Source: Thermoanaerobaculia bacterium
GTDB lineage: Bacteria; Acidobacteriota; Thermoanaerobaculia; UBA5066
DNA length: 64,000 nucleotides
Reading direction: 5' to 3'
Assembly (NCBI GenBank): GCA_963719225.1
Contig: CAVRAY010000002.1
Location: 160,001-224,000, forward strand
Below, piece by piece: positions 38,750 to 62,743 of the stretch. How positions within the stretch are numbered: position 1 is the stretch's first letter; the number at the start of each line of letters is the position of its first letter. The notes under the pieces were generated by a model. It made no database searches. It was not told where the DNA came from and saw only the letters and a program-made list of their open reading frames with translations. The position numbers and the translations under genes are program-made.

Positions 38750-40195
38750 ATGCAAGTTCCCTTCCGCCGCACCGCCGGGGCGCTTCTCGGCCTCGCTCTT
38801 CTTGCGGTTCCGGCCCCGGGAAACGCCGCCTCGCCGGCCGGGGCCGACACGTCAAGCGCCTGGCTGGACTCCACGTCCGCACGCTGGAACGAAATCGCCG
38901 AGAAGATCTGGGGCTTCTCCGAGACGGCGCTCCAGGAGACGAAGTCGTCCGCTCTCCTCGCCGACACTCTCGAAAAGGAAGGCTTCAGCGTGACGCGCGG
39001 CGTCGCGGGAATGCCGACGGCGTTCGTGGCTTCAGCGGGAGCTGGCGCGCCCGTCATCGGGGTCCTCGCCGAGTACGACGCGCTGCCCGGCCTTTCACAG
39101 ACGGCAGGCGCGCCGAAGAAGTCGCCGCTCGCCTCCGCGCCAGCTCCCGGCCACGGGTGCGGTCACAACCTCCTGGGCACGGCGGCAGTCGCGGCCGCCG
39201 TCGCGGCGAACCGCACCCGCGTCGCGGGGAAGCTTCCCGGCACGATCCGCGTCTTCGGCACGCCGGCCGAAGAGCAGCTCCTCGGCAAGCCGTTCATGCT
39301 CAGGGACGGCTCTTTCGCGGGAACCGATGCCGTCCTCGCCTGGCACCCAGCGGACGCGAACTACGTGTGCACGAAGCCTTATCTCGCGATCACCGCACTC
39401 GACGTGGAGTTCTTCGGAAAGACGGCGCATGCCGCGATGAACCCCTGGCTCGGGCGGAGCGCGCTCGACGCCGTCGAGCTGTTCGACCACGCCCTCGCGC
39501 TCATGCGGGAGCACGTGCTCCCGACCGCGCGCCTCCATCGCGCGATCAAGAGTGGCGGCCTCGCGGCGAACATCATCCCGGACTATGCCCGCGTCCAGTG
39601 GTTCGTGCGGGACGAGAACGGAGAACGCGTGAACGAGATGGTCGGGCGCCTGAAGAAGGCAGCCGAGGGCGCGGGTCTCGCGACCGAGACGACGTCGAAG
39701 GTGAGCCTTCTCGCCTCGACGCGCGAGCCGCTCTTCAACGCCGAGCTCTCGAAGGTCCTCCAGAGACATCTCGCCCTCGTCGGGGCGCCGAAGTGGGATG
39801 CCGCCGATGTCGCGCTCGCGCGCGGTGTCCAGAAAGAGGTCGGCATTCCCGAGGCCGGCCTTTCGGACACGGTCCTCCCATATGGTCCCGGGCACGGGTC
39901 CGGGGCTTCGTCGGACGTGGGCGAGGTGAGCGCGGCATTGCCGGTCGCCGAGCTCGCGGTCGCGACGGGGGCCGTGGGCCAGCCGTGGCACCACTGGGCC
40001 GTGACGTCCTGCTCGGGGCACGCGCTCGGCCGAAAGGGCATGCTCGTCGCGGCCAAGGTCCTCGCCGCGACGATGACGGATCTCCTGGGCGATGCCGCGA
40101 CCGTCGCCGCCGCGAAGGCCGAGTTTCAGAAGGCGACCGCCGGCAAGCCCTACGTCAGCCCGCTCGCGAAGGACGCGGTGCCGAAGATCTACTGA
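38750..40195 (+). CDS. M20 amidohydrolase (AbgB-like), exported
   Basis: EYDALPG, GHGCGHN, GTPAEE, SSDVGEVS. Confidence 0.9.
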   Translation: MQVPFRRTAGALLGLALLAVPAPGNAASPAGADTSSAWLDSTSARWNEIAEKIWGFSETALQETKSSALLADTLEKEGFSVTRGVAGMPTAFVASAGAGAPVIGVLAEYDALPGLSQTAGAPKKSPLASAPAPGHGCGHNLLGTAAVAAAVAANRTRVAGKLPGTIRVFGTPAEEQLLGKPFMLRDGSFAGTDAVLAWHPADANYVCTKPYLAITALDVEFFGKTAHAAMNPWLGRSALDAVELFDHALALMREHVLPTARLHRAIKSGGLAANIIPDYARVQWFVRDENGERVNEMVGRLKKAAEGAGLATETTSKVSLLASTREPLFNAELSKVLQRHLALVGAPKWDAADVALARGVQKEVGIPEAGLSDTVLPYGPGHGSGASSDVGEVSAALPVAELAVATGAVGQPWHHWAVTSCSGHALGRKGMLVAAKVLAATMTDLLGDAATVAAAKAEFQKATAGKPYVSPLAKDAVPKIY

Positions 40196-41364
40196 TCGCC
40201 GGGGGCGTCCACCGCGCGAAGCACGCCGTAGTCGACGAGCTTCCGGACGAGCTGCCGTCGCAGGACGAGCCCGTGGTCCTTCTTGATCGCCCTGAGCGCG
40301 TCGGGCACCTTCGAGCCGTCGAAGGCGGGAAGCGCCGGGAGGAGCACGGCGGGGGCATCGATGGGGTCGTAGGCGCTGTAGGTGGCCAGGCGAACGGTCC
40401 CATGTCCGACGCCAATGACGCTGAGGTTGCCGACCTCGAGGCGCTCCGGAAGTGCGTCGCTGGTCACCGCGTCGTAAGCAGCGCGTGCGAGCTGCGCGTG
40501 GAGAGCGACGGTCGCACCTCCGATGCGCTCCACGGCCTTCCACTCCAGGTTCCGGACGATCGCGTCGCATTCGCGGTAGAGCTCCTGCTCGCGTCCGGCC
40601 CAGCTTCCCCAGAGGGACCTGTACCTCTCGGGGCTTACGGTGCCGTCGATCTCGTCGCCCTTGACGGCTTCCGTCCGCCTTTGTGATGGCGGAAGTTTGA
40701 GCGGAAAGTTCACGCGGAGCGCTGCGTGGTCGAAACCGAGGGTGACGAGGCAGTGGATCGCGAGGTTTTCCTCGATGGCCGTCAGCAGCTCCCTGGCCGA
40801 GTCCCAGAACCGCTTCGCCGTGTCCCCGCGCTCGTGCTTGCAGAACCAGGTCATGCAGACGGAATTGCGATGACGCCAGATCCCGCATTCGCCGCCGATC
40901 CGGTCTTCGAGGTAATAGGGGCAGAGCATCGCCTCGCTGTGGCCGAAGACCCCGTCCCCGTGGTCGTACAGGAGGTTGTACGCCCCGCCGGCGCCGACCC
41001 AGAGCGGCGTCACGCCGACTTTCTTTCCGATCCTCTCCACGACGCGGGCCCGCCCTTCGGCCATGTCGGGTGACCCGTCCGCCAGGATCGCCCCGACGAG
41101 AAAGTTGTGAAGCTTCGGCAGGTACGTGCAGCACTTCGTCTTCGGGTTGAAGTAGACCGCGTCACGCTCTCCGTCCGCGCCGCCGGACACGGGCAGCATC
41201 GCGCAGTTCTCGCACGTGGCGTGCGGCTCGGAGGGGATCTTGCCCCCGAGCGCCGCCTCGAGCCAGCGCGCGTGGAGCGGCGCCAGGCCCTTGGCGGGAG
41301 CGTCGGCGATAAAAGGGAGCCGGACCATGGGAGCCCTGGGGCGTGTCACCTGGTCATTGCTCAC
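40189..41364 (-). CDS. Cys-cluster protein, YkgJ/FliB-like (copy 1)
   Basis: CENC...KCC...CPYY...CGIWRHRNSVC..WFC. Confidence 0.7.
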   Translation of the reverse strand: MSNDQVTRPRAPMVRLPFIADAPAKGLAPLHARWLEAALGGKIPSEPHATCENCAMLPVSGGADGERDAVYFNPKTKCCTYLPKLHNFLVGAILADGSPDMAEGRARVVERIGKKVGVTPLWVGAGGAYNLLYDHGDGVFGHSEAMLCPYYLEDRIGGECGIWRHRNSVCMTWFCKHERGDTAKRFWDSARELLTAIEENLAIHCLVTLGFDHAALRVNFPLKLPPSQRRTEAVKGDEIDGTVSPERYRSLWGSWAGREQELYRECDAIVRNLEWKAVERIGGATVALHAQLARAAYDAVTSDALPERLEVGNLSVIGVGHGTVRLATYSAYDPIDAPAVLLPALPAFDGSKVPDALRAIKKDHGLVLRRQLVRKLVDYGVLRAVDAPGDQ

Positions 41365-41372
41365 TAATAGAT

Positions 41373-41522
41373 CTAGGGGGAGGCCTTGTCGATATGCTTG
41401 GGGATCGAAAGATCACCGTGGTCGACCCTCCCCCCGCGGACCTTCCCGCCCTTGGCGGGCTTGACGTCGAGGTTCTTGGCCATTCTCTTTTGAGCCTTAG
41501 GTTTCTCCTTCGCGATTTTCAT
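41373..41522 (-). CDS. Double-glycine precursor L: MKIAKEKPKAQKRMAKNLDVKPAKGGKVRGG|RVDHGDLSIPKHIDKASP
   Basis: AAAGGAG RBS, conserved leader. Confidence 0.85.
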   Translation of the reverse strand: MKIAKEKPKAQKRMAKNLDVKPAKGGKVRGGRVDHGDLSIPKHIDKASP

Positions 41523-41539
41523 GTCTCTACTCCTTTGAA

Positions 41540-41686
41540 TCAAAGCTTCTTGACGCCGCCGCCGGAGCCCCCCGGCAGTTTGTCCATGCCGCCGCGGACC
41601 GCCCCGCCCCTGGACGGCTTGACCTCGAGGTCCTTGACGGTCTTCTTTCGCGAAGCCTTCGGGTTCTTCTTCGCAACCTTCTTCAT
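41540..41686 (-). CDS. Double-glycine precursor K: MKKVAKKNPKASRKKTVKDLEVKPSRGGAVRGG|MDKLPGGSGGGVKKL
   Basis: AAAGGAG RBS, conserved leader; manual translation. Confidence 0.8.
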   Translation of the reverse strand: MKKVAKKNPKASRKKTVKDLEVKPSRGGAVRGGMDKLPGGSGGGVKKL

Positions 41687-41910
41687 GTCCTCGCTCCTTT
41701 CTTCCTGTGTCGGTCGTGGCCTGGCTTCGGCCTTCGCTCGGCCGGAGCATCCTTGAACGGCGGCTCTTCCTCTGTCTTGGGGATCGGGGGACGTTCACCA
41801 AAGACCGTCTTCTGTGCAGCGCCCCCCTTGGGGTCGTTTCGGGGGACGAGGTCCCTGAGGGGTACGAACCCCGGCGACGGCTCCTTCCTGCGGCGCCTTG
41901 GCTTCGTCAT
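41683..41910 (-). CDS. Second-type small protein J (75 aa), motif LRDLVPRNDPKGG|AAQKTVFGE
   Basis: Paralog of 44170-44394; stop overlaps the next ATG. Confidence 0.65.
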   Translation of the reverse strand: MTKPRRRRKEPSPGFVPLRDLVPRNDPKGGAAQKTVFGERPPIPKTEEEPPFKDAPAERRPKPGHDRHRKKGART

Positions 41911-41917
41911 GCCGGCT

Positions 41918-41988
41918 TCGATGTCGACGGGCACGCGGAAGCTCTCGACGGCCTGGCCGCGGTCATCCGCGCCCGAAAGGAAGAACGA
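41918..41988. repeat. Fragment homologous to the VWA gene segment 38365-38441
   Basis: 37/38 identical nt at 41918-41955 vs 38365-38402; both encode GQAVESFRVPVDI on the minus strand. Confidence 0.85.
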
Positions 41989-42106
41989 TTTGGGTTTGGC
42001 CGTAGCCCCCACGGACTGTCCCGCCCTTCGCGGGCTTGACCCCGAGGTTCTTCGTCGCCTTGGTAGTCCTTGACTTGGAGGCCGTCTCCCTCGGGGTCTT
42101 TTTCAT
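41963..42106 (-). CDS. Double-glycine precursor I: MKKTPRETASKSRTTKATKNLGVKPAKGGTVRGG|YGQTQIVLPFGRG
   Basis: AAAGGAG RBS, conserved leader; manual translation. Confidence 0.8.
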   Translation of the reverse strand: MKKTPRETASKSRTTKATKNLGVKPAKGGTVRGGYGQTQIVLPFGRG

Positions 42107-42160
42107 GTCGTTTCTCCTTTCTTCCTTTTTCGGCCGTGAACGGGCTCGAGGGACGGTCGA

Positions 42161-42289
42161 CTATTTGGGCCAGTATCTCCCCCCCAGGCCTCCGCGGACG
42201 GTCCCGCCCTTGGCGGGCTTGACCTCGAGGTTCTTGGCCGCCTTCTTCTGAGAAGCCTTCGTGGCGCTTTTCTTCGTGGTCTTCTTCAT
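42161..42289 (-). CDS. Double-glycine precursor H: MKKTTKKSATKASQKKAAKNLEVKPAKGGTVRGG|LGGRYWPK
   Basis: AAAGGAG RBS, conserved leader; manual translation. Confidence 0.8.
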   Translation of the reverse strand: MKKTTKKSATKASQKKAAKNLEVKPAKGGTVRGGLGGRYWPK

Positions 42290-42377
42290 GTCGTCTCTCC
42301 TTTCTTCCTGTTTCGCTCGTGACCCTGTTTCGAGTGCTTGACGAGCATCCCATGTCGGAGGTGCATCATCTCGGGAT

Positions 42378-42554
42378 TCACTTGACCTTCGTGTTTATCG
42401 ACGCTGCAAGACTCGTGCGAACCCCGAGAGCTTGGAGCTCCACAGCGGTGGGACCTCCGCGAACATCGCCGCTCTTGTCGCGCCTGACCTCGAGATCCTT
42501 GACCGCCTTCCTGTGTGTACCCTTCCCTTCGCCTTTCTTCGTGGTCTTCATCAT
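42378..42554 (-). CDS. Double-glycine precursor G: MMKTTKKGEGKGTHRKAVKDLEVRRDKSGDVRGG|PTAVELQALGVRTSLAASINTKVK
   Basis: AGAGGAG RBS, conserved leader; manual translation. Confidence 0.8.
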   Translation of the reverse strand: MMKTTKKGEGKGTHRKAVKDLEVRRDKSGDVRGGPTAVELQALGVRTSLAASINTKVK

Positions 42555-42617
42555 GTCGTTTCTCCTCTTTTCCTGTTCCAGTCGTGACCCGGCTTCTGCC
42601 TTCTCATCGAGTTCTGG

Positions 42618-43796
42618 TTAGACGTGCTCGTCTTCGGGGGCGTCCACCGCGCGAAGAACGCCGTAGTCGACGAGCTTTCGGACGAGCTCGAGGCTCAGGA
42701 CGAGCCCGTGGTCCTTCTCGATCGCCCGAAGGGCGTCACGCACCTTCGAGCCGTCGAAGGCGGGAAGCGCCGGGAGGAGCGCGGCGGGCGCATCGGTCGG
42801 GTCGTAGGCGCTGTACGTGGCCAGGCGCACGGTCCCATGCCCGACGCCGATGACGTTGAGGTTGCCGATCTCGAGGCGCTCCGGAAGAGCGGAACTCGTC
42901 ACCGCCCGGTACGCGGCGCGTGCGAGCTGCGTGAGGAGAGCGACGGTCGCGCCGCCGATCCTCTCGACGTCCTTCCACTCCATGTCCCGGACGATCCCGT
43001 CGCTTTGGAGGTAGAGCTCCTTCTCGCGTCCGGCCCAGCTTCCCCAGAGGGCCTTGTACCTCTCGGGGCTCACCGTGCCGTCGAGCTCGTCCCCCTTCAC
43101 GGTTTCCGTCCGCTGAGACTTCGGAACCTTGAACGGGAAATTGGTCCGGAGCGCCGCGTCGTCGAAACCGAGGGTGACGAGGCAGTGGATCGCGAGGTTC
43201 TCCTCGACGGCCATCAGCAGCTCGTTGGCCGAGTCCCAGAACCGCTTCGCCGTGGCCCCTCGCTCGTGCTTGCAGAACCAGGTCATGCAGATGGAATTGC
43301 GGTGACGCCAGATCCCGCAGCCGCCGCCCATCCGGTCTTCGAGGTAGTAGGGGCAGCGCATCGCCTCGCTGTGGCCGAAGACCCCGTCACCGTGGTCGTA
43401 CATGAGGCCGTACGCTCCGCCGGCGCCAACGGAGAGCGGCGTCACGCCGACCTTTCTTCCGATCCTCTCCAGAACGCGCGCCTGTCCTTCGGCCATGTCG
43501 GGCGCCTCGTCTGCGAGGATCGCGCCGACGAGAAAGTTGTGAAGTCTCGGCAGGTAGGTGCAGCACTTCGTCTTGGGATTGAAGAAGACCGCGTCCCGGG
43601 CCCCGTCCGCGCCGCCGGGCACCGGGAGCATGACGCAGCTCTCGCATGTGGCGTGGGGCTCGGAGGGGATTTTTCCTCCGAGAGCCGCTTCGAGCCAGCG
43701 CGCATGGAGCGGCGCCAGGTCCTTGGCGGCAGCGCTGGCGATGAAAGGGAGCCGGACCATGGGAGCCCTGGGGCGTGTCACCTGCTCATTGCTCAC
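42618..43796 (-). CDS. Cys-cluster protein, YkgJ/FliB-like (copy 2)
   Basis: Close paralog of 40189-41364 with the same Cys pattern. Confidence 0.7.
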   Translation of the reverse strand: MSNEQVTRPRAPMVRLPFIASAAAKDLAPLHARWLEAALGGKIPSEPHATCESCVMLPVPGGADGARDAVFFNPKTKCCTYLPRLHNFLVGAILADEAPDMAEGQARVLERIGRKVGVTPLSVGAGGAYGLMYDHGDGVFGHSEAMRCPYYLEDRMGGGCGIWRHRNSICMTWFCKHERGATAKRFWDSANELLMAVEENLAIHCLVTLGFDDAALRTNFPFKVPKSQRTETVKGDELDGTVSPERYKALWGSWAGREKELYLQSDGIVRDMEWKDVERIGGATVALLTQLARAAYRAVTSSALPERLEIGNLNVIGVGHGTVRLATYSAYDPTDAPAALLPALPAFDGSKVRDALRAIEKDHGLVLSLELVRKLVDYGVLRAVDAPEDEHV

Positions 43797-43804
43797 TAAT
43801 AGAT

Positions 43805-43942
43805 CTAGGGGGAGGCCTTGTCGATATGCTTCGTGATGAGAAGGTCGCCTCCGCGAACCGCTCCGCCCTTGCCTGGCTTGACGTCGAGGTCCTTGGCCGC
43901 CTTCTTGGCCTTCGAGGGGGTCTTTTTAGTGGTCTTCTTCAT
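43805..43942 (-). CDS. Double-glycine precursor F: MKKTTKKTPSKAKKAAKDLDVKPGKGGAVRGG|DLLITKHIDKASP
   Basis: AAGGAG RBS, conserved leader. Confidence 0.85.
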   Translation of the reverse strand: MKKTTKKTPSKAKKAAKDLDVKPGKGGAVRGGDLLITKHIDKASP

Positions 43943-43993
43943 GTCGTTTCTCCTTCCTTCCTGTTTCAGTCGTGACCCGAACATGAAACGCAA

Positions 43994-44173
43994 TTAGTGT
44001 TTCCGCCATACCTCAATGACCACTTCCTTAATGTGCTCTCCCTTGATGGGAATGATGTCTCCGAGGCCATGCCCTCCACGGACCGTCCCACCCTTGGCGG
44101 GCTTGACGTCGAGGTTCTTCAGTGCCCTCTTGCGCGAGGCCTTCGCGGCGCTTTTCTTCGTGGTCTTTTTCAT
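43994..44173 (-). CDS. Double-glycine precursor E: MKKTTKKSAAKASRKRALKNLDVKPAKGGTVRGG|HGLGDIIPIKGEHIKEVVIEVWRKH
   Basis: AAAGGAG RBS, conserved leader; manual translation. Confidence 0.8.
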   Translation of the reverse strand: MKKTTKKSAAKASRKRALKNLDVKPAKGGTVRGGHGLGDIIPIKGEHIKEVVIEVWRKH

Positions 44174-44394
44174 ATCGGTTCTCCTTTCTTCCTGCTTCGG
44201 TCGTGACCCGGCTTCTGCCTTCGTTCCGCCGGAACATCTTTAAGGGGGTGGTTATCTTCTGTCTCGAGGATCTGGGGACGTTCGCCGAAGACCGTCTTCC
44301 CCGCCGACCCCCCCTTGGGGTCGTTTCGGGGGACGAGGTCCCTGAGGGCGACGAACCCGGGCGGCGTCTTCGTCTTGCGGCGGCCCTTCTTCAT
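44170..44394 (-). CDS. Second-type small protein D (74 aa), motif LRDLVPRNDPKGG|SAGKTVFGE
   Basis: TGATG coupling with the GT41 stop; paralog of 41683-41910. Confidence 0.65.
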   Translation of the reverse strand: MKKGRRKTKTPPGFVALRDLVPRNDPKGGSAGKTVFGERPQILETEDNHPLKDVPAERRQKPGHDRSRKKGEPI

Positions 44395-45896
44395 CACGCC
44401 GCCACCGGTGCGGGAAAGCAACCGCGTTCCTCGCCGCTGCCTCGCGCCTCCGAGCGAGATCGCGCGCGCCAGAGCTGGAAATAGACATCCTCGATGCAGC
44501 GCGCGAGCCTCGCGCAGTCGGTGACGGGCGAGGCCTTCAGGCGCTTCCTCATCGTGCGCCGTAGCTCTTCGCGTCTTTCCGCTTTTGCCGCCGATCCCCA
44601 TCGAATGGCCGTCTCGACGTACCCGCGCACGTCCCGGCTGACGAACTTCCCGAGACCGGCGTTTTCCAGCAGCGACGCGCTGGTACGCGAGATCCACCGA
44701 TCCCCCGAGAACGCGACGACCGGAACGCCCTGCCAGATGGCTTCCGTGGTCGTCGTGCCCCCGTTGTACGGGAACGTGTCGAGGGCGAGGTCGATGGCGT
44801 CGTAGTTTCGGAGGAAGTCGTAGTGCTCCGCAGGTCCGAGCATCGCCACGCGCTCGGGCTCGATGCCGCGCCGCGTGAATCGCGCGAGTGTGTGCTTGCG
44901 ATTGCCGGGGTCTCCCAGAGCGGCGTTGGCCAGGAGAAAGCGGCTTCCGGGGCATCGCCTCAGGATCTCGGCCCACGCGGCGACGACGCCGTCGTTGAGC
45001 TTGTAGAGCGACGAGAGACTGCCGAACGTGACGAAGCCGTTCTTGAGCGACGGCGGTGGCGCGACATCGGGGACCGGGTAATTCACCGCGAACGTCAGAG
45101 ACGAGAGCGGGAGCTCGACGACCTGCTCTCCATACCAGTGCTTCTCGCCGTCACGAATGAGCCAACGATCGCCGATCAGCGCATCGAACACGGGCAACCC
45201 GGAGGTTCCGAAGATGTTGAACCACGCCACGACGACTGGAGCCAGCCTCGTCGCGAACAGCGGCAGCCGGCCCACCCGACTGTACTGGTTGAGATCCACG
45301 AGAACGTCGAGCCCCGCCCGGGCGATCCGGCACGCGGCCGCGCCGTTGTCGAGGCGCGAGATGTCGTGGACGTGCGCCCCGCTCGTACGCGCCCGGCGGC
45401 GCACGGCGGAAGGGCGCGACGCGTCGGAAAAAAGGTGGACCTCCACCCTGCCGGGGTCGTGGTGATCGATCAGCCCCCACACCGGCTTCATCCAGTTGTC
45501 TGCGTGGAAAAACGACGAGACGTAGCCGATCTTTAGTACTTTCCTGACCGGGCTGCCGACGACGATCGCCCTGGCGGGCGCGACGGCTCGGGCGCGAACC
45601 GCGTCGCCCAGCGCGCGGCGGACCTTCAGGATCGCCGCGTGGTCCAGGCGCGGGTCGAACGGGGCGATCGTCGCGAGGAGCCGCTGGGCTCGGATGTCCG
45701 TACGAATCCGGAGAGACGCCCGAAGATGCCGGGTCGCCCTCTCGACCTCACCGAGCGCGAAGGTCGCCCGGGCGAGGTAATAACGTGCGGCCGCAGAATC
45801 CGGACTCGCCCGGACGGCCGATTCGAAGACAGCGAGGCCGCTCGCGTACTTGCCGGCCGCGAGCATGCGACGGCCATTCGGGCAGCCGGCGATCAT
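44394..45896 (-). CDS. TPR-containing GT41 (O-GlcNAc transferase/SPINDLY-like) glycosyltransferase
   Basis: KIGYVS, DVLVDL, RLAPV, VTFGS, LDTFPYNGGTTTTEAIWQGVPVV; TGATG coupling to precursor C. Confidence 0.85.
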   Translation of the reverse strand: MIAGCPNGRRMLAAGKYASGLAVFESAVRASPDSAAARYYLARATFALGEVERATRHLRASLRIRTDIRAQRLLATIAPFDPRLDHAAILKVRRALGDAVRARAVAPARAIVVGSPVRKVLKIGYVSSFFHADNWMKPVWGLIDHHDPGRVEVHLFSDASRPSAVRRRARTSGAHVHDISRLDNGAAACRIARAGLDVLVDLNQYSRVGRLPLFATRLAPVVVAWFNIFGTSGLPVFDALIGDRWLIRDGEKHWYGEQVVELPLSSLTFAVNYPVPDVAPPPSLKNGFVTFGSLSSLYKLNDGVVAAWAEILRRCPGSRFLLANAALGDPGNRKHTLARFTRRGIEPERVAMLGPAEHYDFLRNYDAIDLALDTFPYNGGTTTTEAIWQGVPVVAFSGDRWISRTSASLLENAGLGKFVSRDVRGYVETAIRWGSAAKAERREELRRTMRKRLKASPVTDCARLARCIEDVYFQLWRARSRSEARGSGEERGCFPAPVAA

Positions 45897-46069
45897 CAGG
45901 ACTTGAGCCGCGTGTCGTGACTCCACTGAGTGCTTTGAATTTCGATCCAATCCGTGTGTCGCACCTCTCCACCACGGACCGTCGCGCCCTTGGCGGGCTT
46001 GACCCGGAGGTTTCGGACGGGCTTCTTGTGAGCGGCCTTCGGCGCGGTTCTCTTGGTTGTTTTCTTCAT
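45896..46069 (-). CDS. Double-glycine precursor C: MKKTTKRTAPKAAHKKPVRNLRVKPAKGATVRGG|EVRHTDWIEIQSTQWSHDTRLKS
   Basis: Purine-rich RBS, conserved leader; manual translation. Confidence 0.8.
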   Translation of the reverse strand: MKKTTKRTAPKAAHKKPVRNLRVKPAKGATVRGGEVRHTDWIEIQSTQWSHDTRLKS

Positions 46070-46129
46070 GACGTTCTTCCTTTCTCGAGCGGACTCTCAC
46101 TATGTCGACGGACCTCTTCATGCCCTGCT

Positions 46130-46254
46130 TCATTCCTGGATCTTGGTTATCGGCTTTTTCCCCCCGCGGACGGTCCCGCCCTAGGCGGGCTGACCTCGAG
46201 GTTTCGGACGGCTTTCTTTGCCTTCGACGCGCTTTTCTTCGTGGTCTTGTTCAC
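46130..46254 (-). pseudogene. Inactivated precursor B (restored core KKPITKIQE)
   Basis: 1-nt deletion (GTC AG CCC) plus AAG>TAG relative to sibling leaders. Confidence 0.7.
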
Positions 46255-46261
46255 GTCGTCC

Positions 46262-46399
46262 TCATTTCGGCCGCCTATCTGGGGGACCGGGGGGGAATCC
46301 TCCGCGGACCGACCCGCCCATGACGGGCTTGACCTCGAGGTCCTTGACCGCTTTCTTGTTAGATGCCTTCGAGGGGTTCTTCTTCGCAGTCTTCTTCAT
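46262..46399 (-). CDS. Double-glycine precursor A: MKKTAKKNPSKASNKKAVKDLEVKPVMGGSVRGG|FPPGPPDRRPK
   Basis: AAAGGAG RBS; first gene after the sigma54 promoter; manual translation. Confidence 0.8.
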   Translation of the reverse strand: MKKTAKKNPSKASNKKAVKDLEVKPVMGGSVRGGFPPGPPDRRPK

Positions 46400-46440
46400 C
46401 TCTGTTCTCCTTTCTCGCGGTTTGTGACGGGCCCGAGCGA

Positions 46441-46456
46441 AGCAAGGGCCATTCCA
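46441..46456 (-). promoter_or_regulatory. sigma54 (-24/-12) promoter of the precursor array
   Basis: TGGAATGGCCCTTGCT = GG-N10-GC, ~40 nt upstream of precursor A and beside a sigma54 activator gene. Confidence 0.75.
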
Positions 46457-46591: not shown

Positions 46592-47566
46592 TCACTTCGT
46601 GTCGCTGAGCTTCCTCTCGAGTCGGGCGCGGGAGATGCCGAGGGCCCGGGCTGCTCTCGTCTTGTTGCCGGAGAGCTCCCGGAGGACCCGGCGGATGTGG
46701 TTCTGCTCGACGGTTCGGAGACTCAGGTCGGTTGCGGGTGCCGGCCGCGCGGCGGAAGGCGGCGCTCCGGAGACGCCGTCGTTTTGGATCGGGACTGAGA
46801 GTTCCTCGATCACGCTGCCCTCGGTCATCGCAATGGCGGCGTGAATGACGAGGTCGAGCTCGCGCAGGTTCCCGGGCCAGTGGTACGAGAAGAGAGCATC
46901 CGCGGCCTTCTGTGAGAGGCCGGAGATGGCCCGTCCCTGCGCATGGGCGGCGCGGCGGATCGAGGCCGCGACGAGCTCGCGCAGGTCGTTCGGCCTCTCG
47001 CGCAGCGGGGGAAGGGTGACCGTGAGCCCCGCGAGCCTGTAGAAGAGGTCGCTCCGGAACTGCTCGGTGTTCGCGAACCGCGCGAGGGCGTGGCGCGTGG
47101 CCGAGATCAGCCGCACGTCCGCCGTGCGCAGGCGCTCGGAGCCGAGCCTCTCGAATTCGCCGTATTCGACCGCCCTGAGGATCTTCGCCTGGGCGAGCGG
47201 GCTCATGTCGGCGATCTCGTCGATGAAGAGGGTGCCGCCGTCGGCGATCTCGAACTTGCCGCGCACCTGCCGCTTCGCGTCCGTGAACGCGCCTTTCTCG
47301 TGGCCGAAGAGCTGGCTGTCGAGGAGCGTGTCGGAGAGGGCGGCGGCGTTGAAAGAGACGAAGGGGGCCGACGCCCTGAGAGAGGAGTTGTGGATGGCCT
47401 GGGCGAGGAGCGTCTTGCCGGTGCCTGACTCGCCGAGGAGGAGGAGCGGAAGCTCGGTCCGGCAGGCGGCGCGCGCCACGTCGAGGCACCGCCGCATCGC
47501 GGCGTCGGCTGTTCGGAAGCTCTCGAGCGTGAGGCGTGCCGCGTCGGGGAAGCTCTCCCGGGTCAC
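46592..47566 (-). CDS. sigma54-dependent activator (AAA+ and Fis HTH) lacking an N-terminal sensory domain
   Basis: GESGTGKT, LFGHEKGAFTDA, FIDEIAD, FRSDLFYRL, WPGNLREL, GNKTRAARALGISR. Confidence 0.92.
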   Translation of the reverse strand: MTRESFPDAARLTLESFRTADAAMRRCLDVARAACRTELPLLLLGESGTGKTLLAQAIHNSSLRASAPFVSFNAAALSDTLLDSQLFGHEKGAFTDAKRQVRGKFEIADGGTLFIDEIADMSPLAQAKILRAVEYGEFERLGSERLRTADVRLISATRHALARFANTEQFRSDLFYRLAGLTVTLPPLRERPNDLRELVAASIRRAAHAQGRAISGLSQKAADALFSYHWPGNLRELDLVIHAAIAMTEGSVIEELSVPIQNDGVSGAPPSAARPAPATDLSLRTVEQNHIRRVLRELSGNKTRAARALGISRARLERKLSDTK

Positions 47567-48765
47567 CGGATGTTCTCCCTCAGCTGCCGGAGCGGCTCGA
47601 AAGCGTACTCGACGAGAGTCCGACGGCCGACGACGATCCGCGCCATCCCGCGCATTCCCGCGAGGAGCGGTTTGCGCTCTCCGTCCGCCGCGACGGTTTG
47701 CTCGTCCAGGTCGACGAGGACGGGAAATGTCGCCGTCTCGCGGATCCCGACGCCGGAGGGGCTGGCCCACCGGACTGTCCCTCCGCGGACGCCATAGCGC
47801 TGGTACGGGAACGCCTCGAGGAGGAGACGAACGTTCTGGCCGGGGCGAATCCGGGCGAGGCCGCCCTGCGGAAGTGCCAGCTCGGCCTGAAGAGTTTCGG
47901 CGGAGCACGCGACCTCCGCGAGGACGTCGCCGTCACGGACCACAGCTCCTGCCCGCCTCGCCGTGACCCCGAGAACCGTGCCGTCGCAGGGAGAGTTGAC
48001 GGCCAGCTCGTTTCCAAGCCCGTCTCCGCCTGCGGAGGGCGCCTCGCCGCTGAGCGCCCCGATCCTGATTCTCGCCTGCGCGATCTTCTCTGCGAGGACC
48101 CGCTCCTCCTCGTGGAATTCCATCCCTTTGGCCGCCTCGGTGTCGCGGAGCTTTTCGATGGCGCTTCCGGTCGCGCCCCGCTCGGCCTGGAGCTGCTCGA
48201 GCTCCATCACGGCCTGGCTGTGCCGGATCTGGGCGTCGGAGCGCTCGTTCAGGCTCGCGAGCCCCTGGTCGGCGAGCTTCTTCGCGCGCTCGGACTGCTC
48301 CTTCGTCAGGACGAGCTGCTCCCTTTTCAGGGCCAGCATCCGATCGAGATAATCCGCGCGATCGGCGAGGCTCCGGGCCTCCTCGCGCCTCGCGCTCGCC
48401 TCGCTTTCGAATCTCCTCCGGGCATTGGAAAGGCTCTCGGCAAGGCCGCCGAGACCGGCTTCGAGCGCCTTCCGCTCGGACGCCCGGTCGGCGAATTCCT
48501 GTGACCGGATGGCGAAGAGCCTCGCCCCCCTGAGCACCGGGCGCCCCTCGACGGCGAGCACGTCCGTGACGGTTCCCCCGCGCGGAGCGCGGACCGGGTC
48601 GGTGCCGCGCACCGGCACCAGCGCGAACGGGGCAACGACCGTCTCCGGGACCTTGACGGCCACCGAGACGATCGCCGCGGCCACGAAGAGAGCGATCAGG
48701 ATCCAGGCGAGGCTCCGCGCGGCGAACGGCGGCGGGTCGCTCGGGAGAAACGGCGTCTCGTCCAT
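47563..48765 (-). CDS. HlyD family secretion membrane fusion protein
   Basis: Single transmembrane segment, long coiled coil, AFPYQRYG, LLAGM, YAFEPL. Confidence 0.92.
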   Translation of the reverse strand: MDETPFLPSDPPPFAARSLAWILIALFVAAAIVSVAVKVPETVVAPFALVPVRGTDPVRAPRGGTVTDVLAVEGRPVLRGARLFAIRSQEFADRASERKALEAGLGGLAESLSNARRRFESEASARREEARSLADRADYLDRMLALKREQLVLTKEQSERAKKLADQGLASLNERSDAQIRHSQAVMELEQLQAERGATGSAIEKLRDTEAAKGMEFHEEERVLAEKIAQARIRIGALSGEAPSAGGDGLGNELAVNSPCDGTVLGVTARRAGAVVRDGDVLAEVACSAETLQAELALPQGGLARIRPGQNVRLLLEAFPYQRYGVRGGTVRWASPSGVGIRETATFPVLVDLDEQTVAADGERKPLLAGMRGMARIVVGRRTLVEYAFEPLRQLRENIR

Positions 48766-51700
48766 CTAGATCCCCAGCTGCTGGCTCGAGAGGTAGTAGT
48801 AGAGGCCCTGGCGGTCCATCAGCTCGTCGTGGATCCCCTGCTCGACCAGACGCCCCTTCTCCAGCACGAGGATGACGTCCGCGTCGCGGATGGTGCTGAG
48901 CCGGTGCGCGATCACGAATGACGTCCGGCCTTCCAGAAGGCGGTCGAGGTTCTCCTTGACCGCCCGTTCCGACTCGCTGTCCAGTGAGCTGGTCGCTTCG
49001 TCGAAGATCAGCACCGGGGGCCGGTTGTAGATGGCACGCGCGATGGCGATGCGCTGCTTCTGTCCGCCGGAAAGAGCGAGGCCCGACTCGCCGACCCGGG
49101 TGTCGTAGCCCAGGGGAAACCTCTCCACGAACTCGTGGGCGCTCGCGACGCGGGCAGCCCAGAGAACCCGGTCCATGTCGGGCTCGGCGTCGCCGAAGGC
49201 GATGTTCCGCGCGATCGTCTCGTCGAAGAGGTAGTTCTCCTGGAGGACGAAGCCGACGCGCCGCCGGAGGTCCCTGTAGTTCAGCTTTTCGAGGTCCACT
49301 CCGTCGAAGAGGATCGATCCCTCGGTCGCCTCCAGGAGGCCGGAGAGGAGCTTGGCGAGCGTCGTCTTGCCGGAGCCGCTTCGGCCGACGACCGCCACCA
49401 TCTTTCCGGGCTCCACGTCGAAGGTGAGACCCTCGAGGATCTTCGGCGACTCGGGCCCGCCGTACTGGAAGCCGACGTTCCTGAGCGAGACCTTTCCCGC
49501 GAGCGTTCGGACCGGAATGAGCGCGGACCGGTCGTCGCCCTGCTCGGGGGTCTGCTCGAAGACGTCGTTCAGGCGGTCGAGGAGGACCGTGCCGTACTGG
49601 AGGTGGTCCCAGGTCGCGAGCAGGATCCCGATCGGCGCGTTCGCGAGGGCCACGAGCGCGTTGAACGCGACTAGCCCGCCGATGGTGAGCGACCCGCGCA
49701 TCACCTGGAGCGCGCCCGCCCACAGAAAGAGGGCGACCGAGAGGAAGCTCACGGCCTGGACGGCGCCCTCGTAGGTCATCACGGTGAAGTCGGCGCGAAA
49801 CTGCTTGCGGGCGAGGCCGAGGAACCGTTCCAGCATCAGCTGCCTGAGTGAGCCTTCGGCTCCGAGCGACTTGACGGTCTCGATCCCCTTGATGGTGTCG
49901 ATCTGATGGGCCGAATACTTTCCGAACGCCTCCTCGAGCGTGTCGAAGACGGGACGGAGCTTCCGCCGCGAATACCTCATCAGGAGGGCGTAGAGGGGAA
50001 CGGTCGCGAGGAAGACTCCCGCGAGGAGGGGGCTGTAGACGAACATCAGGACCACGACTGCGGCGAGCTGGGAGAGGGCGGTCAGGGAGGAGACCCCGTA
50101 CTGGACCAGGAGCTCGCGCACCTGACGGAGGCCCATGAGACGGCGCTGGATGTCCCCCGTCTTCCGCGTCGAGAAGTAGGACATCGGAAGCGACAGGAGG
50201 CGCCGGGTGATGAAGTCGAGCGTCGCGGCGTCGATCCGGACTGCGGCGAAGCTCAACAGGTATCGCTGCAGCACCATCGCCAGGGTCGAGAAAACGAGGA
50301 CGCCTCCCATCCCGAGGAGAAGAATCCGGAGCAACCCCTCGTCGCGCTCGACGAGAACCCGGTCGACGATCACCTGGCTGAAGACCGGCAGCACCATCTG
50401 CAGGATGCTGACGATCAACGCCAGAGCGGCCGCCTTCGCGAGGAGAGCGGCGTGCGGCCGAAAGAAGCGGGTGAGCCACGCGAAGCTCGAGCGTCCCACC
50501 GGAGCCTTCTCGAACGCTTCCGTGTAGTCGAAGAGGGCAGCGTAACCCGTCCACTCCTTCTCGACCTCTGCGCGCGGCAGGAGCCGGAGCCCGACCCCAG
50601 GGTCGGCCAGGCGAACGTCCGCCGGGTTCGTGTCGTAAAGGACGACCCAGTGGTTGCCGCCCCAGTGAAGGATGGCGGGGAGCGGCATCTGGTCCAGGTG
50701 CCGCGCCGAGGCCTTGACGGAGCGCGCGGCGAGTCCCAGCTCCTCGGCTCCGCGGCAGATCGCCCGGAGGCTCGTGCCGTCGGTCGATGTGAAGAGGAGC
50801 TGCCGGATCCGCGCCAGGCTCACCGCGCGGCCGAAGTGGCGACAGACCATCGCCAGGGAAGCCGCGCCGCAGTCCATCTCGTCGATCTGCCGGATGAAGC
50901 GGAAACGGCGGATCCGCCGAGCCTTCTTGGTGAACCGACCGTCCTCCGTCGCGAAGGGAGCGGCGGGCTCCTCGCCCGCTGCTTCGTCCGCCCGGCCGCC
51001 GGCATCCTCGTCGACTTGGTCCGGACCCACCTCCTCCACCGCCGCCTCCGCGGGCAGGAGCTCGTCGGCGAAGTCGAGCGGAACCGTCGCCTCCTTTCGG
51101 TAGTCGTACTGGGCGATACGCCGGCCGATGGCCGCGCGGAACCCGGGATGCGCCTCGGTGACGGCCCGGAAGGCGGTCGGGTGCAGGCTCAGGAGCCGAC
51201 AGGGCGTGACGGCCTCGACTGTGGCCTTTCTCGGTTCTCCCGTGAACGCCGAGATCTCGCCGAAGACATCGCCTTTCCGGAGGTAGGCGATGTTTCGCAG
51301 GTGCCCGTCCTCCTCGGCGAAGGCGCGAAGCCTTCCTTCCTCGACGACGAAAAGAGGTCCTTCCCCGTCTCCCTGTCGGAACACGGTCTCCCCTGCGGCG
51401 ACGGCGATCGTCTCGAACCGGTGGAGGAGCCCGGCGAGGACCGCTGGCGGAAGCGTGGAGAACGGGGTGTAGAGACGGAAGAGGTTCTGGAGGCTCCGGT
51501 ACCGGCTGTGGAGCTCCAGGCAGGTCCGGATCTCGGGATCGCCGGAGAGAAGCTCGTCGAAGGCGCTTCGGTCGAGCCGGAGGACCGTCGCGGCGCTCGA
51601 CGCGCGCACCGTGGCCTGCCGCCTGGCGGAGTCGTCCAGGAGACCCATTTCGCCGAAGCTGTCCCCGGGACGAAGCACGCCGAGCGAAACCTCCTCGCCC

Positions 51701-51942
51701 CGCTCTCCCATCTTCACCGCACGGGCTTTCCCGGCCACGAGGACGAAGAAGGCGTCCGCGGGATCGCCCTCGCGAAGGATGACGGCGCCGAAGGGAAAGG
51801 AGACGGGGACGAACTTCCCGGTCACCGCGGCGCGAGACGCAGGCGAGAGGAACTTCAGGAGCGGCAGGTCGTCGAGGAGGGCCCGCGCCGCCTCCACCTC
51901 CGGCGGGAGGGACGACTTCGCCTTGCTCTTCAAGGCTTCCAT
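48766..51942 (-). CDS. Peptidase-containing ABC transporter (2x cNMP, C39 peptidase, TMD, ATPase)
   Basis: GDSFGEMG and GDVFGEIS cNMP motifs, QIDEMDCGAASL, HWVVLYD, GRSGSGKT, LSGGQKQR, DEATSSLD. Confidence 0.95.
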   Translation of the reverse strand: MEALKSKAKSSLPPEVEAARALLDDLPLLKFLSPASRAAVTGKFVPVSFPFGAVILREGDPADAFFVLVAGKARAVKMGERGEEVSLGVLRPGDSFGEMGLLDDSARRQATVRASSAATVLRLDRSAFDELLSGDPEIRTCLELHSRYRSLQNLFRLYTPFSTLPPAVLAGLLHRFETIAVAAGETVFRQGDGEGPLFVVEEGRLRAFAEEDGHLRNIAYLRKGDVFGEISAFTGEPRKATVEAVTPCRLLSLHPTAFRAVTEAHPGFRAAIGRRIAQYDYRKEATVPLDFADELLPAEAAVEEVGPDQVDEDAGGRADEAAGEEPAAPFATEDGRFTKKARRIRRFRFIRQIDEMDCGAASLAMVCRHFGRAVSLARIRQLLFTSTDGTSLRAICRGAEELGLAARSVKASARHLDQMPLPAILHWGGNHWVVLYDTNPADVRLADPGVGLRLLPRAEVEKEWTGYAALFDYTEAFEKAPVGRSSFAWLTRFFRPHAALLAKAAALALIVSILQMVLPVFSQVIVDRVLVERDEGLLRILLLGMGGVLVFSTLAMVLQRYLLSFAAVRIDAATLDFITRRLLSLPMSYFSTRKTGDIQRRLMGLRQVRELLVQYGVSSLTALSQLAAVVVLMFVYSPLLAGVFLATVPLYALLMRYSRRKLRPVFDTLEEAFGKYSAHQIDTIKGIETVKSLGAEGSLRQLMLERFLGLARKQFRADFTVMTYEGAVQAVSFLSVALFLWAGALQVMRGSLTIGGLVAFNALVALANAPIGILLATWDHLQYGTVLLDRLNDVFEQTPEQGDDRSALIPVRTLAGKVSLRNVGFQYGGPESPKILEGLTFDVEPGKMVAVVGRSGSGKTTLAKLLSGLLEATEGSILFDGVDLEKLNYRDLRRRVGFVLQENYLFDETIARNIAFGDAEPDMDRVLWAARVASAHEFVERFPLGYDTRVGESGLALSGGQKQRIAIARAIYNRPPVLIFDEATSSLDSESERAVKENLDRLLEGRTSFVIAHRLSTIRDADVILVLEKGRLVEQGIHDELMDRQGLYYYLSSQQLGI

Positions 51943-52928
51943 AGCCACGTGACCCTGTTGTCGACCTCGCGCGCGACGAGGCCTTCGAGGAGGCTGGACT
52001 CCGCCTTTTCCTTTACCTCGGGATCGTCCGGCATCGGCGGAATCTTCGCGCGGAGCGAGACGAGCACGAACTCGTCGCCGACGCTCACCGGACCGACGAG
52101 CTCTCCCGGGCGCGCCGAGAGCAGGACGTCCCGGACCTCAGGCTCAGCCTCGTCGAGAAACTCCACGCCTTCCTCCGTGGCTTCGCCGATTTCCTCCGCC
52201 AGCCTTTCGAGGGCGACTCCCTCCTGTCGCACCGCCATCGCCGCCTCGCGCGCGGCGTCCTCGCCGGGAAGCCTCAGGACGCTGCAGTCGATGCGGGTCC
52301 AATCGGTGAGGTGCGCCTTGACCCGCGCCGCCAGCGCATCGGGAGTGAGCACCTCATCGCGAAACCGCTCGTACGAGAGCTCCAGGCGAGCGAAGACCTC
52401 CCGCCGCTCGACGAGCGTCCCGGTCGGGCCTGGTTCTTCGTCGGGAGCCTGCGTCCGTTCCTTCTCCCTTTCCCCGATCGCGGCCCGCCCCGCGAGCTGC
52501 CGCGCCAGACGCTCCAGCTCTCCGGAACACACGGCCTCGCCGAGGACGGCCAGCTCGACCTGGCGAGGATCCACCTGGGGCTTGGCCGGAAGGACGAAGT
52601 CCGGAAGGCGGTCGCGGAGGAGGCTGGCGTGAATCCAGTCGAGCCAGGTCTCCGCGTCGAGGCGCCAGCGCGCGAGCCAGCGTTCCAGCTCCTCCGCGGT
52701 GATGAGGTCCCGCTCGTACCGGAAGTCGTCCGCGGCCCCGTCGATCTCATCTTGAGGAATGACGGCTTCCGCGGCCGTGTCCGCAAAGGCGAGAAGAGCG
52801 AGGTTGTCGAGAGCCCGCTCCTCGATCTCCTTCCAGTCGCCCCGCAGCTCCGCAGCCAGGACGACGTCCTCCCACCGGAAGACCCGGCCACCCGCGCAAA
52901 ATACGTCCCGCCCGAAGAGATCCTGCAC
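51930..52928 (-). CDS. Foldase/parvulin-like accessory protein
   Basis: DDFRYERDLITAEELERWL and ARPGELVGPV resemble PPIase-like partners of cNMP-PCAT operons. Confidence 0.65.
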   Translation of the reverse strand: MQDLFGRDVFCAGGRVFRWEDVVLAAELRGDWKEIEERALDNLALLAFADTAAEAVIPQDEIDGAADDFRYERDLITAEELERWLARWRLDAETWLDWIHASLLRDRLPDFVLPAKPQVDPRQVELAVLGEAVCSGELERLARQLAGRAAIGEREKERTQAPDEEPGPTGTLVERREVFARLELSYERFRDEVLTPDALAARVKAHLTDWTRIDCSVLRLPGEDAAREAAMAVRQEGVALERLAEEIGEATEEGVEFLDEAEPEVRDVLLSARPGELVGPVSVGDEFVLVSLRAKIPPMPDDPEVKEKAESSLLEGLVAREVDNRVTWLWKP

Positions 52929-57540: not shown

Positions 57541-57615
57541 TGGTCGGGGTGGGCGGGATCGAACCGCCGACCCCCTGCTCCCAAAGCAGGTGCGCTACCA
57601 CTGCGCTACACCCCG
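57541..57615 (-). tRNA. tRNA-Pro (UGG)
   Basis: CGGGGTGTAGCGCAGTGGTAGCGCACCTGCTTTGGGAGCAGG...GTTCGATCC...CCA. Confidence 0.97.
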
Positions 57616-62381: not shown

Positions 62382-62743
62382 GGGGGCGTCCCGGTTTCGA
62401 CGGGGCATTCAGCGATCGAGGAGCACGCCGAGCACGGCCGTTCGCTCGTAAAAACGACGGTCAACAACCAGCTGCCAACAACAGCGACCTCGCTCTCGCG
62501 GCCTAATTAAGCCGTGACGGGCGCCGGGGAGCCCGTCCGGGGCGCCTCGGCGTTTGACGCGAAATCCGGGCTGGGGCCGCCTCCGCCACCTGAAGAGGCG
62601 TCCCGAGAGTTTCAGGTTCGCTGTCGCGCCCGGTCGTCCGGACCTGAAGACGCGGCGGCTAAAAAAACAAGTCCGGACTGAGCGTGGAGAATCTCGACGT
62701 TCGGGCGCTTCGGACGGGGGTTCGACTCCCCCCGCCTCCACCA
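62382..62743 (+). ncRNA. ssrA: tmRNA; tag peptide ANNSDLALAA at 62474-62506
   Basis: 5' GGGGGCG...TTCGAC, 3' GGTTCGACTCCCCCCGCCTCCACCA, tag ending in ALAA. Confidence 0.95.

What the first reader, a model, noticed from the sequence alone, without database searches (positions are those of the whole stretch)
41373..46430. Repeat-and-spacer-like cassette architecture: constant 5'UTR plus leader, variable insert after GG
Seen: at least six units share an upstream block on the minus strand, approximately GGGTCACGAC.GAA.CAGGAAGAAAGGAGAAACGACATG, followed by ~100 nt of leader ending in GTC CG(C/T) GGN GGN-like codons. Similarity collapses at the GG codons. Inference: a ~140 bp expression/export module duplicates and acquires new 3' sequence, creating a diversifying peptide library. 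No integrase or reverse transcriptase is in the window.
Basis: partly seen in the sequence, partly recalled or inferred. Interest (0 to 1): 0.75.

Follow-up and report, generated by a model that had tools for sequence, protein, structure and literature searches.

The report
Exported peptides built from Hcp pieces
The repeats are a row of tiny genes in which a shared export tag is joined to short, different tails, many of them pieces of Hcp, the tube protein of the bacterial type VI injection weapon; the tails are predicted to be cut off and secreted and likely act as mimics of such tubes, which would be a new way for bacteria to interfere with each other's weapons.

Summary
The window holds nine intact double-glycine-leader peptide genes and one frameshifted copy. 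They lie behind a sigma-54-type promoter motif, beside a C39 peptidase ABC exporter, HlyD, a GT41 glycosyltransferase and two Cys-rich proteins. DNA identity among units drops from 55-96% to 23-31% exactly at the GG codons. Four of 9 window cores, and 123 of 297 cores across relatives, match T6SS Hcp (controls 1 and 4 of 297). Together they tile 154 of 156 profile positions with staggered ends. A congener with neighbouring genes 79-92% identical shares no core. I found no donor DNA in the host, no polarity and no linked reverse transcriptase. The data fit segmental duplication, leader/core swapping and trimming. Cores are under selection: one orthologous pair differs by 19 replacement and 2 silent changes yet stays Hcp-like. 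Two near-complete relatives with many Hcp-piece peptides have no Hcp or sheath gene detected. Best reading: an exported library of tube-protein mimics; function untested. This scan noted the family before on other DNA; my literature searches found no description.

The parts
51930..52928 (-). PpiC-type peptidyl-prolyl isomerase-like protein, first gene of the export cluster
   Evidence: PF13145 E 1e-5; TIGR04500 E 7e-8, below cut-off; matched in 10 of 301 class genomes
48766..51948 (-). Peptidase-containing ABC transporter (2 cNMP-binding domains, C39, ABC membrane, ABC ATPase); Q354, C360, H433, D449 present
   Evidence: residues, spacing as in PCAT1 (PMC6959990); only C39 in the genome
47563..48765 (-). 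HlyD-family membrane fusion protein
46592..47629 (-). Sigma-54-dependent activator (start codon uncertain)
   Evidence: PF00158 E 1e-58, HTH_8
46441..46456 (-). Sigma-54-type -24/-12 promoter motif, 57 nt before U1
   Evidence: same place in 3 of 9 loci examined; within 200 nt upstream of 11 of 121 precursors against about 0.5 expected at the host genome rate
46262..46399 (-). U1 precursor, 45 aa, 11-aa proline-rich core, not Hcp-like; related core in G017
46130..46252 (-). U2, frameshifted copy (decay or assembly error)
45896..46069 (-). U3 precursor, 57 aa; 23-aa core matches Hcp profile positions 16-30; stop overlaps the GT41 start
   Evidence: 11.4 bits, p 0.005; G017 has a core from the same Hcp region in the same position
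44394..45896 (-). TPR plus GT41 (OGT/SPINDLY-like) glycosyltransferase
   Evidence: PF13844 E 2e-37; 5djs E 2e-61
44170..44394 (-). V1, conserved 74-aa ORF with a variant GG motif; its 3-prime end is the repeated upstream block
43994..44173 (-). U4 precursor, 59 aa; core residues 10-23 match Hcp positions 71-84 (weak)
   Evidence: 3.7 bits, p 0.010
43805..43942 (-). U5 precursor, 45 aa; 13-aa core matches Hcp positions 51-63; shortened paralog of U10
   Evidence: 9.6 bits, p 0.005; alignment
42618..43796 (-). Cys-rich 392-aa protein, no Pfam or NCBIfam family; distant lead to YkgJ/CxxCxxCC
   Evidence: fold unresolved
42378..42554 (-). U6 precursor, 58 aa, 24-aa core, not Hcp-like; its opening motif recurs in 6 other cores
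42161..42289 (-). U7 precursor, 42 aa, 8-aa core, not Hcp-like
41963..42106 (-). U8 precursor, 47 aa, 13-aa core, not Hcp-like
41683..41910 (-). V2, paralog of V1
41540..41686 (-). U9 precursor, 48 aa, 15-aa glycine-rich core, borderline Hcp match
   Evidence: p 0.015, -0.6 bits
41373..41522 (-). U10 precursor, 49 aa; 18-aa core matches Hcp positions 47-63
   Evidence: PF05638 E 0.0018, 19 bits, below the 23.5 cut-off; 10.8 bits, p 0.005
40189..41364 (-). Second Cys-rich protein, 391 aa, 85% identical to the first (segmental duplication, spacing about 2.43 kb)

Best explanation
The locus is a multigene family of double-glycine-leader peptides whose cores are in large part short in-frame pieces of the type VI secretion tube protein Hcp; they are likely transcribed from a sigma-54 promoter, predicted to be cut at the GG and exported by the adjacent transporter, and likely act as mimics of the tube proteins of other bacteria's injection systems. 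Shown: the gene anatomy, the Hcp match, the tiling, the turnover between relatives, and selection on cores. Inferred (about 0.85): cleavage and export by the PCAT with HlyD and an unlinked TolC. Inferred (about 0.7): diversity comes from ordinary recombination acting on old hcp-derived inserts, namely segmental duplication, leader/core swapping at the GG codons, in-frame deletion at the 5-prime end and new stops at the 3-prime end; no dedicated capture enzyme is needed. Inferred (about 0.4): the released strands bind tube subunits or their partners and disturb assembly, cargo loading or sensing in competitors. GT41 and the Cys-rich proteins may modify some cores (untested).
For: Hcp match: 123 of 297 non-redundant cores at p<=0.01 against own shuffles, shuffled pseudo-cores 1 of 297; length-matched host protein segments 4 of 297; at 4 bits or more, 98 against 0. 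Sets found by leader alone: host 4 of 9, G017 10 of 26. In blind Pfam scans T6SS_HCP recurs in 7 of 71 and 17 of 104 precursors. Tiling: 154 of 156 positions, 47 distinct starts among 78. A second tube family: 9 cores stack on positions 45-66 of a gp19-type tail-tube profile (15 of 297 at p<=0.01, control 3). Selection: pooled dN/dS 0.29 for 14 G029/G039 core pairs, leaders 0.24. One syntenic pair has 19 replacement and 2 silent differences, a silent rate below all 120 comparable full-length hcp pairs, yet scores 44.5 and 49.0 bits; random mutation of the same size reached the partner's score in 0 and 1 of 5000 runs. G029 and G039 (99% and 96% complete) carry at least 42 and 31 cores but no full Hcp and no TssC, so their own T6SS is not the target. 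Trimming: U5 is U10 less five codons at the junction, and DNA after the stops continues the Hcp profile better than permuted (-1.7 against -3.0 bits, n 31, p 0.004). A designed mimic peptide can block T6SS assembly in culture (PMC8406304, abstract).
Against: No functional data. Five of 9 window cores and 174 of 297 overall are not Hcp-like at p<=0.01, and only 3 window cores reach 4 bits. Hcp assembles in the attacker's cytoplasm (established knowledge) and no uptake route is evident. The host and G017 have their own T6SS. G029 and G039 loci were partly fetched through Hcp hits and the database set through a profile holding some core columns, so those fractions are inflated; at the G029 exporter locus alone it is 5 of 12, only 1 strong. 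The dN/dS pairs were picked by core identity, which biases it down, and within G017 it is 0.73 on 5 pairs. The 19-to-2 result is one pair, and the simulation ignores codon bias. The leader lacks the canonical E(-8)L(-7).
Confidence: 0.45

Rival explanations
1. RiPP scaffold library: hcp pieces were only raw material. The products are tailored by GT41, the Cys-rich proteins or, in relatives, B12 radical SAM enzymes into bioactive peptides with targets unrelated to T6SS.
For: Tailoring genes are interleaved and translationally coupled with precursors. The same Hcp region sits directly before GT41 and before the Cys-rich gene in both the host and G017. G029 has two ApyD-like enzymes (677 and 678 bits, cut-off 750); ApyD methylates a RiPP precursor (10.1101/2023.10.30.564719, passages). 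More than half of the cores are not Hcp-like.
Against: Does not explain why diverging cores keep the Hcp pattern, why two tube families recur, or why the whole protein is tiled. It is compatible with the best explanation if the modifications serve stability.
Confidence: 0.25
2. Split or self-assembling Hcp: the pieces are exported singly and co-assemble outside the cell into rings, fibres or a surface coat, or serve as a signal to kin.
For: G029, G039 and G186 cover 132, 118 and 102 of 156 profile positions in the regions fetched. The pieces include the long strands.
Against: The host covers only 46 of 156 positions. Ends are staggered and overlapping, not complementary. Coverage is uneven.
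Confidence: 0.15
3. Active spacer-like capture: a dedicated mechanism inserts fresh foreign DNA or cDNA behind the GG codons.
For: Sharp junction, sister leaders with unrelated cores, 47 distinct start points, no shared core between congeners, and no leader fused to a long Hcp among the best 150 of 201 hits of a search without length limit. The original inserts must have come from hcp genes somehow.
Against: No polarity. Best DNA identity of 16 cores to any of 32 fetched hcp genes is 48-75%. The host's one reverse transcriptase is a group II intron protein about 660 kb away. Glycine microhomology at donor positions is not significant (p 0.054). Orthologous cores persist.
Confidence: 0.1
4. Decaying debris: leader duplications fused to random hcp remnants, without function.
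For: U2 is frameshifted. The leader profile matched only 2 of 29 genomes of the genus.
Against: Ribosome-binding sites, coupled stops and starts, dN/dS 0.29, retained Hcp pattern, and a conserved exporter with intact catalytic residues.
Confidence: 0.05

Closest known systems
Double-glycine-leader peptides exported by peptidase-containing ABC transporters (PCAT1/CtA, ComA, LahT; PMC6959990, passages read)
   Same: GG end, hydrophobic residues at -4 and -12, C39 transporter with the Gln-Cys-His-Asp set.
   Different: The leader is lysine-rich and lacks E(-8)L(-7); the transporter has two cNMP-binding domains; cores are pieces of a structural protein.
Prochlorosins and other Nif11/NHLP precursor families (PMC10783134 and PMC2887384, passages read)
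   Same: Many paralogous precursors, conserved leader ending at GG, hypervariable core, tandem and dispersed copies, diversification by insertion and deletion.
   Different: There the leader is borrowed from another protein (NHase, Nif11) and cores are rich in Cys, Ser and Thr. Here the leader is short (31-34 aa), window cores have no Cys, and the core is what is borrowed.
T6SS Hcp/TssD (PF05638) and gp19-type tail tube proteins (PF06841)
   Same: Cores align in frame to their conserved segments.
   Different: Cores are 3-44 aa against about 160 aa, carry an export leader and lie outside T6SS clusters. Databases label some of them Hcp.
CRISPR arrays and diversity-generating retroelements (definitions recalled)
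   Same: Constant part followed by a variable part.
   Different: Units are protein-coding, repeats are only 57-83% alike, and there is no polarity, no protospacer in the host and no linked reverse transcriptase.
Aminopyruvatide (apy) clusters (10.1101/2023.10.30.564719, passages read)
   Same: ApyD-like B12 radical SAM enzymes occur among the precursors in G029.
   Different: No such enzyme in the window; window cores have no Cys and none ends in Asp.

Membership tests
GG-leader peptide / PCAT export system | Leader ending in Gly-Gly | tested here: met
   9 of 9 intact units
GG-leader peptide / PCAT export system | Consensus L(-12), E(-8), L(-7) | tested here: inconclusive
   Val at -12 and -4 and Leu at -14 are invariant, but -8 and -7 do not fit; a variant leader
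GG-leader peptide / PCAT export system | Linked C39 ABC transporter with catalytic residues, plus HlyD | tested here: met
GG-leader peptide / PCAT export system | Outer-membrane TolC partner | tested here: inconclusive
   14 PF02321 matches on contig C1, none at the locus
GG-leader peptide / PCAT export system | Cleavage and secretion shown | not testable with these tools
   needs an experiment
NHLP / Nif11 (prochlorosin-type) precursors | Long leader homologous to NHase or Nif11 | tested here: not met
   31-34 aa; no such hit in Pfam or NCBIfam for 9 precursors
NHLP / Nif11 (prochlorosin-type) precursors | Cys-rich cores and LanM or YcaO enzyme | tested here: not met
   0 of 9 window cores and 38 of 297 overall have Cys; no such enzyme among the 11 flanking ORFs scanned
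NHLP / Nif11 (prochlorosin-type) precursors | TIGR03794/03796/03797 three-gene cassette | tested here: not met
   one ABC gene; scores below the cut-offs
CRISPR-like array | Near-identical repeats with polar spacer gain | tested here: not met
   no Rfam match
CRISPR-like array | Spacers match donor DNA | tested here: inconclusive
   none in the host genome or among 32 fetched hcp genes; the nearest donor in public collections was not identified
CRISPR-like array | Cas1/Cas2 or another integrase | not tested
   no genome-wide search; none among the 11 flanking ORFs scanned
Diversity-generating retroelement | Linked RT with template and variable repeat | tested here: not met
   the single host RT is of group II intron type and unlinked
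T6SS Hcp (PF05638) | Full-length tube domain in a T6SS cluster | tested here: not met
   best window match covers profile positions 34-64 of 129, below cut-off; the host T6SS lies on contig C1

The most novel reading that the evidence does not exclude
Soil bacteria keep evolving, exported libraries of peptides that copy segments of other microbes' contractile-injection tubes (Hcp and gp19 type) and use them to jam or spoof those machines. The cores change amino acids quickly while staying inside Hcp sequence space, as in a mimicry arms race, and this happens even in genomes with no T6SS of their own.
Probability: 0.35. Interest if true: 0.9.

Novelty: new variant of a known kind. Interest (0 to 1): 0.7.

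Why it matters
Hypervariable cores behind a conserved leader are usually treated as sequence of unknown origin. Here the origin is readable: a family of predicted secreted peptides tiles one structural protein and is held to resemble it. If they act on tubes, they would be natural anti-T6SS peptides, which so far are known to me only as a designed compound, and short cores are cheap to synthesise and test. Even without that function, the family shows how peptide libraries are built from protein fragments, and it explains a class of 50-60 aa genes that databases mislabel as Hcp.

Tried and rejected
Host genome as core donor: tblastn and blastn gave only self and paralog hits. Degenerate search for a full-length Hcp carrying the U10 motif in genome contigs: 0 matches; the nearest donor genes stay unidentified. 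Metagenome scan with the PPIase-like protein: 260 pattern hits, none confirmed. Glycine microhomology at junctions: p 0.054 at offset -1, nothing at other offsets. Polarity: none. Leader tree: host and G017 leaders are mixed and mostly unresolved. Structure of the Cys-rich protein: pLDDT 54.6, no Foldseek match, best Z 4.0; a winged-helix hint at the C-terminus is inconclusive. Sequencing runs: no RNA holder listed; shares 0.05-0.07. The complex prediction of Hcp with the U3 core was not available. Pilin origin for some non-Hcp cores: the resemblance to Flp and DUF1559-type pilins is recalled; PF04964 finds nothing in the host, three fetched Flp pilins lack the U6 opening motif, and TIGR04294 hits 2 of 48 precursors at E 0.03, below cut-off, so it is a lead only. 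PHROGs: nothing informative for 36 precursors. PDB sequence search with U10: 0 hits. The first promoter pattern had the wrong spacer and was redone. Four non-family or V-type ORF classes were dropped before the 297 count. Literature: 0 papers; unrelated listings.
Full report
Observation. The minus strand from 46399 to 41373 holds nine intact small ORFs of 42-59 aa and one frameshifted copy. Each has a ribosome-binding site and a lysine-rich leader of 31-34 aa ending in V-R-G-G, then a core of 8-25 aa. Across all 36 pairs, DNA identity is 0.55-0.96 per 6-nt bin before the junction and 0.23-0.31 after it. Contigs from other metagenome runs break off within 1 nt of three of these junctions. It is also the coding end of a conserved small ORF, V, present twice here and in G017, G029, G039, G186 and G046.

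Context. Upstream on the same strand lie a PpiC-like gene, a peptidase-containing ABC transporter with two cNMP domains, HlyD and a sigma-54 activator. The C39 domain has Gln, Cys, His and Asp at the spacing described for PCAT1 (PMC6959990 passages) and is the only C39 in the genome. A -24/-12 motif lies 57 nt before U1; it recurs at the same place in 3 of 9 loci and upstream of 11 of 121 precursors, against about 0.5 expected. A GT41 glycosyltransferase and two 85%-identical Cys-rich proteins interrupt the array. One database relative is labelled Thermoanaerobaculia, so the host is probably an acidobacterium of that class (inference).

What the cores are. U10 hits T6SS_HCP at E 0.0018, below the curated cut-off. 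I built a profile from 32 full-length Hcp-family genes fetched from the host and relatives and scored 297 non-redundant cores from six genomes and two database searches. 123 beat their own shuffles at p<=0.01, against 1 of 297 shuffled pseudo-cores and 4 of 297 natural host segments; at 4 bits or more the counts are 98 and 0. In the window U3, U5, U10 and, weakly, U4 match; U1, U6, U7 and U8 do not, and U9 is borderline. G017, found by leader alone, gives 10 of 26. The G029, G039 and database fractions are inflated by how they were gathered. Blind Pfam scans agree: 7 of 71 and 17 of 104 precursors hit Hcp, and the next most frequent family hits 3. The matches cover 154 of 156 positions with 47 distinct starts among 78. 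Nine database cores stack on one segment of a gp19-type tail-tube profile built from 7 genes. The other cores share recurring short motifs whose sources I did not establish. The Atlas holds clusters of 52-62 aa look-alikes partly labelled Hcp.

How the array changes. G017, in the same genus, has the cluster with proteins 79-92% identical but a different order and no identical core among 26. It also has a second array next to IS3 elements and three solo units. The leader profile matched 2 of 29 genomes of the genus and the PpiC-like marker 10 of 301 in the class. Three ordinary processes are visible. First, segmental duplication: the block of V, two units and a Cys-rich gene occurs twice, about 2.43 kb apart. 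Second, leader/core swapping: three starred sister-leader pairs in G017 carry unrelated cores. Third, trimming: U5 equals U10 less five codons at the junction, and the four codons from their shared stop onward resemble the residues that end a longer G029 core from the same region. Over 31 distinct cases the DNA after the stop fits the continuing Hcp profile better than permuted (p 0.004, a weak signal with some related cases). Against spacer capture: no polarity, no donor in the host, 45-67% identity to the own hcp genes, no significant glycine microhomology, and an unlinked group II intron RT. No leader fused to a long Hcp appeared among the best 150 of 201 hits, so how hcp pieces first came behind the leader is open, as is the nearest donor gene.

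Selection. Between G029 and G039, 12 reciprocal-best leader pairs with identity 0.75 or more all have related cores (0.62-1.00); the 5 weaker pairs do not. Pooled dN/dS is 0.29 for 14 core pairs and 0.24 for their leaders; these pairs were picked by core identity, and five G017 paralog pairs give 0.73. One syntenic pair shows 19 replacement and 2 silent differences. Its silent rate (0.12) is below that of all 120 comparable full-length hcp pairs (mean 0.53), which argues against replacement from a second hcp gene. Both versions score high on the profile, which random mutation of the same size reached in 0 and 1 of 5000 runs, or 0 and 2.5% with half the changes. Two further pairs sharing one partner and one paralog pair point the same way; a pair with only two differences is uninformative. 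In the host and G017 the unit before GT41 and the unit before the Cys-rich gene come from the same Hcp regions, at about 57-62% DNA identity over the aligned part. G029, G039 and G186 gave no full Hcp and no TssC match; the host, G016 and G017 have a T6SS.

Mechanism. Most likely the activator drives sigma-54 transcription, the transporter cuts after the GG and exports the cores through HlyD and an unlinked TolC, and some cores are first modified. Because resemblance to tubes is maintained, and maintained in genomes without a detected T6SS, I favour action on other cells' tubes or on whatever senses them. A designed mimic peptide can block T6SS assembly (PMC8406304, abstract). The main objections are that Hcp assembles inside the attacker, that over half of the cores are not Hcp-like, and that nothing functional was tested. 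Rivals are a RiPP scaffold library (G029 has ApyD-like enzymes), a self-assembling split protein, active capture, and debris.

Comparison and novelty. It works like the GG-leader families with hypervariable cores (PMC2887384 and PMC10783134, passages) and is a PCAT-type system by anatomy, with a variant leader. It is not a member of NHLP/Nif11, CRISPR, DGR or Hcp itself. Full-text searches for Hcp with double-glycine or leader peptides returned 0 papers; two searches gave unrelated listings; PMC12452194 (passages) does not mention Hcp. The library lacks most subscription journals, and I read no supplements, where such precursors could be listed. This scan's earlier notes describe the same family on other DNA; I had reached the Hcp reading before seeing them. 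From the few lines shown of those notes I cannot tell which of my analyses they also hold. Verdict: a real, functional-looking peptide export locus, a new variant of a known kind, interest 0.7.

Noticed in passing
window 44170-44394 and 41683-41910; L021, L131, L022, L023, L041, L047: The V ORF is a conserved, nearly invariant companion with a variant GG motif, found in three families of the class. Its 3-prime end supplies the ribosome-binding block of the next precursor. No Pfam or NCBIfam family.
   Followed up: partly
window 40189-41364 and 42618-43796: Cys-rich 390-aa proteins of no named family; Atlas clusters are mostly Myxococcota, with a distant YkgJ/CxxCxxCC lead. They also occur in G004, G018 and G023, where I saw no precursor in the DNA fetched.
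   Followed up: partly
L022 3974-6142 and 6926-9010 (G029); L023 (G039): Two ApyD-like B12 radical SAM genes lie among the precursors in place of GT41.
   Followed up: partly
L131 7715-8946 and 15336-16567 (G017): Two IS3 elements in opposite orientation lie in and beside a second precursor array, with a probable protein kinase gene between them (kinase label from the sequence, not scanned).
   Followed up: partly
L134 5872-6015 / L060 (G017): A solo precursor sits about 270 nt upstream of a full-length, divergent Hcp-family gene.
   Followed up: no
G000 C2:483705-484148 and C1:3227963-3228352: Two short orphan Hcp-like genes outside the T6SS cluster; similar orphans in G003 and G016.
   Followed up: no
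database precursors P0025, P0055, P0101, P0130, P0140, P0149, P0198, P0202: Non-Hcp cores are mosaics of a few recurring 5-8 residue motifs in different combinations, which suggests recombination among cores and further donor proteins; pilins are a recalled lead.
   Followed up: partly
L046 3302-4121 (G312): Three tandem precursors with another leader type and partly shared cores follow the same exporter.
   Followed up: no
L139, L137, L064 (G029, G039): A few precursors have a different basic leader and Cys-containing cores, lanthipeptide-like by appearance (recalled, not tested).
   Followed up: no
L186 (G000 C2:868-871 kb): Group II intron RT at the very end of the contig, next to a tripartite-transporter-like ORF; may be foreign sequence (assembly contamination 6.2%).
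   Followed up: partly
window 57541-57615 and 62382-62743: tRNA-Pro and tmRNA genes, about 4.6 kb and 9.5 kb from the cluster's first gene.
   Followed up: no
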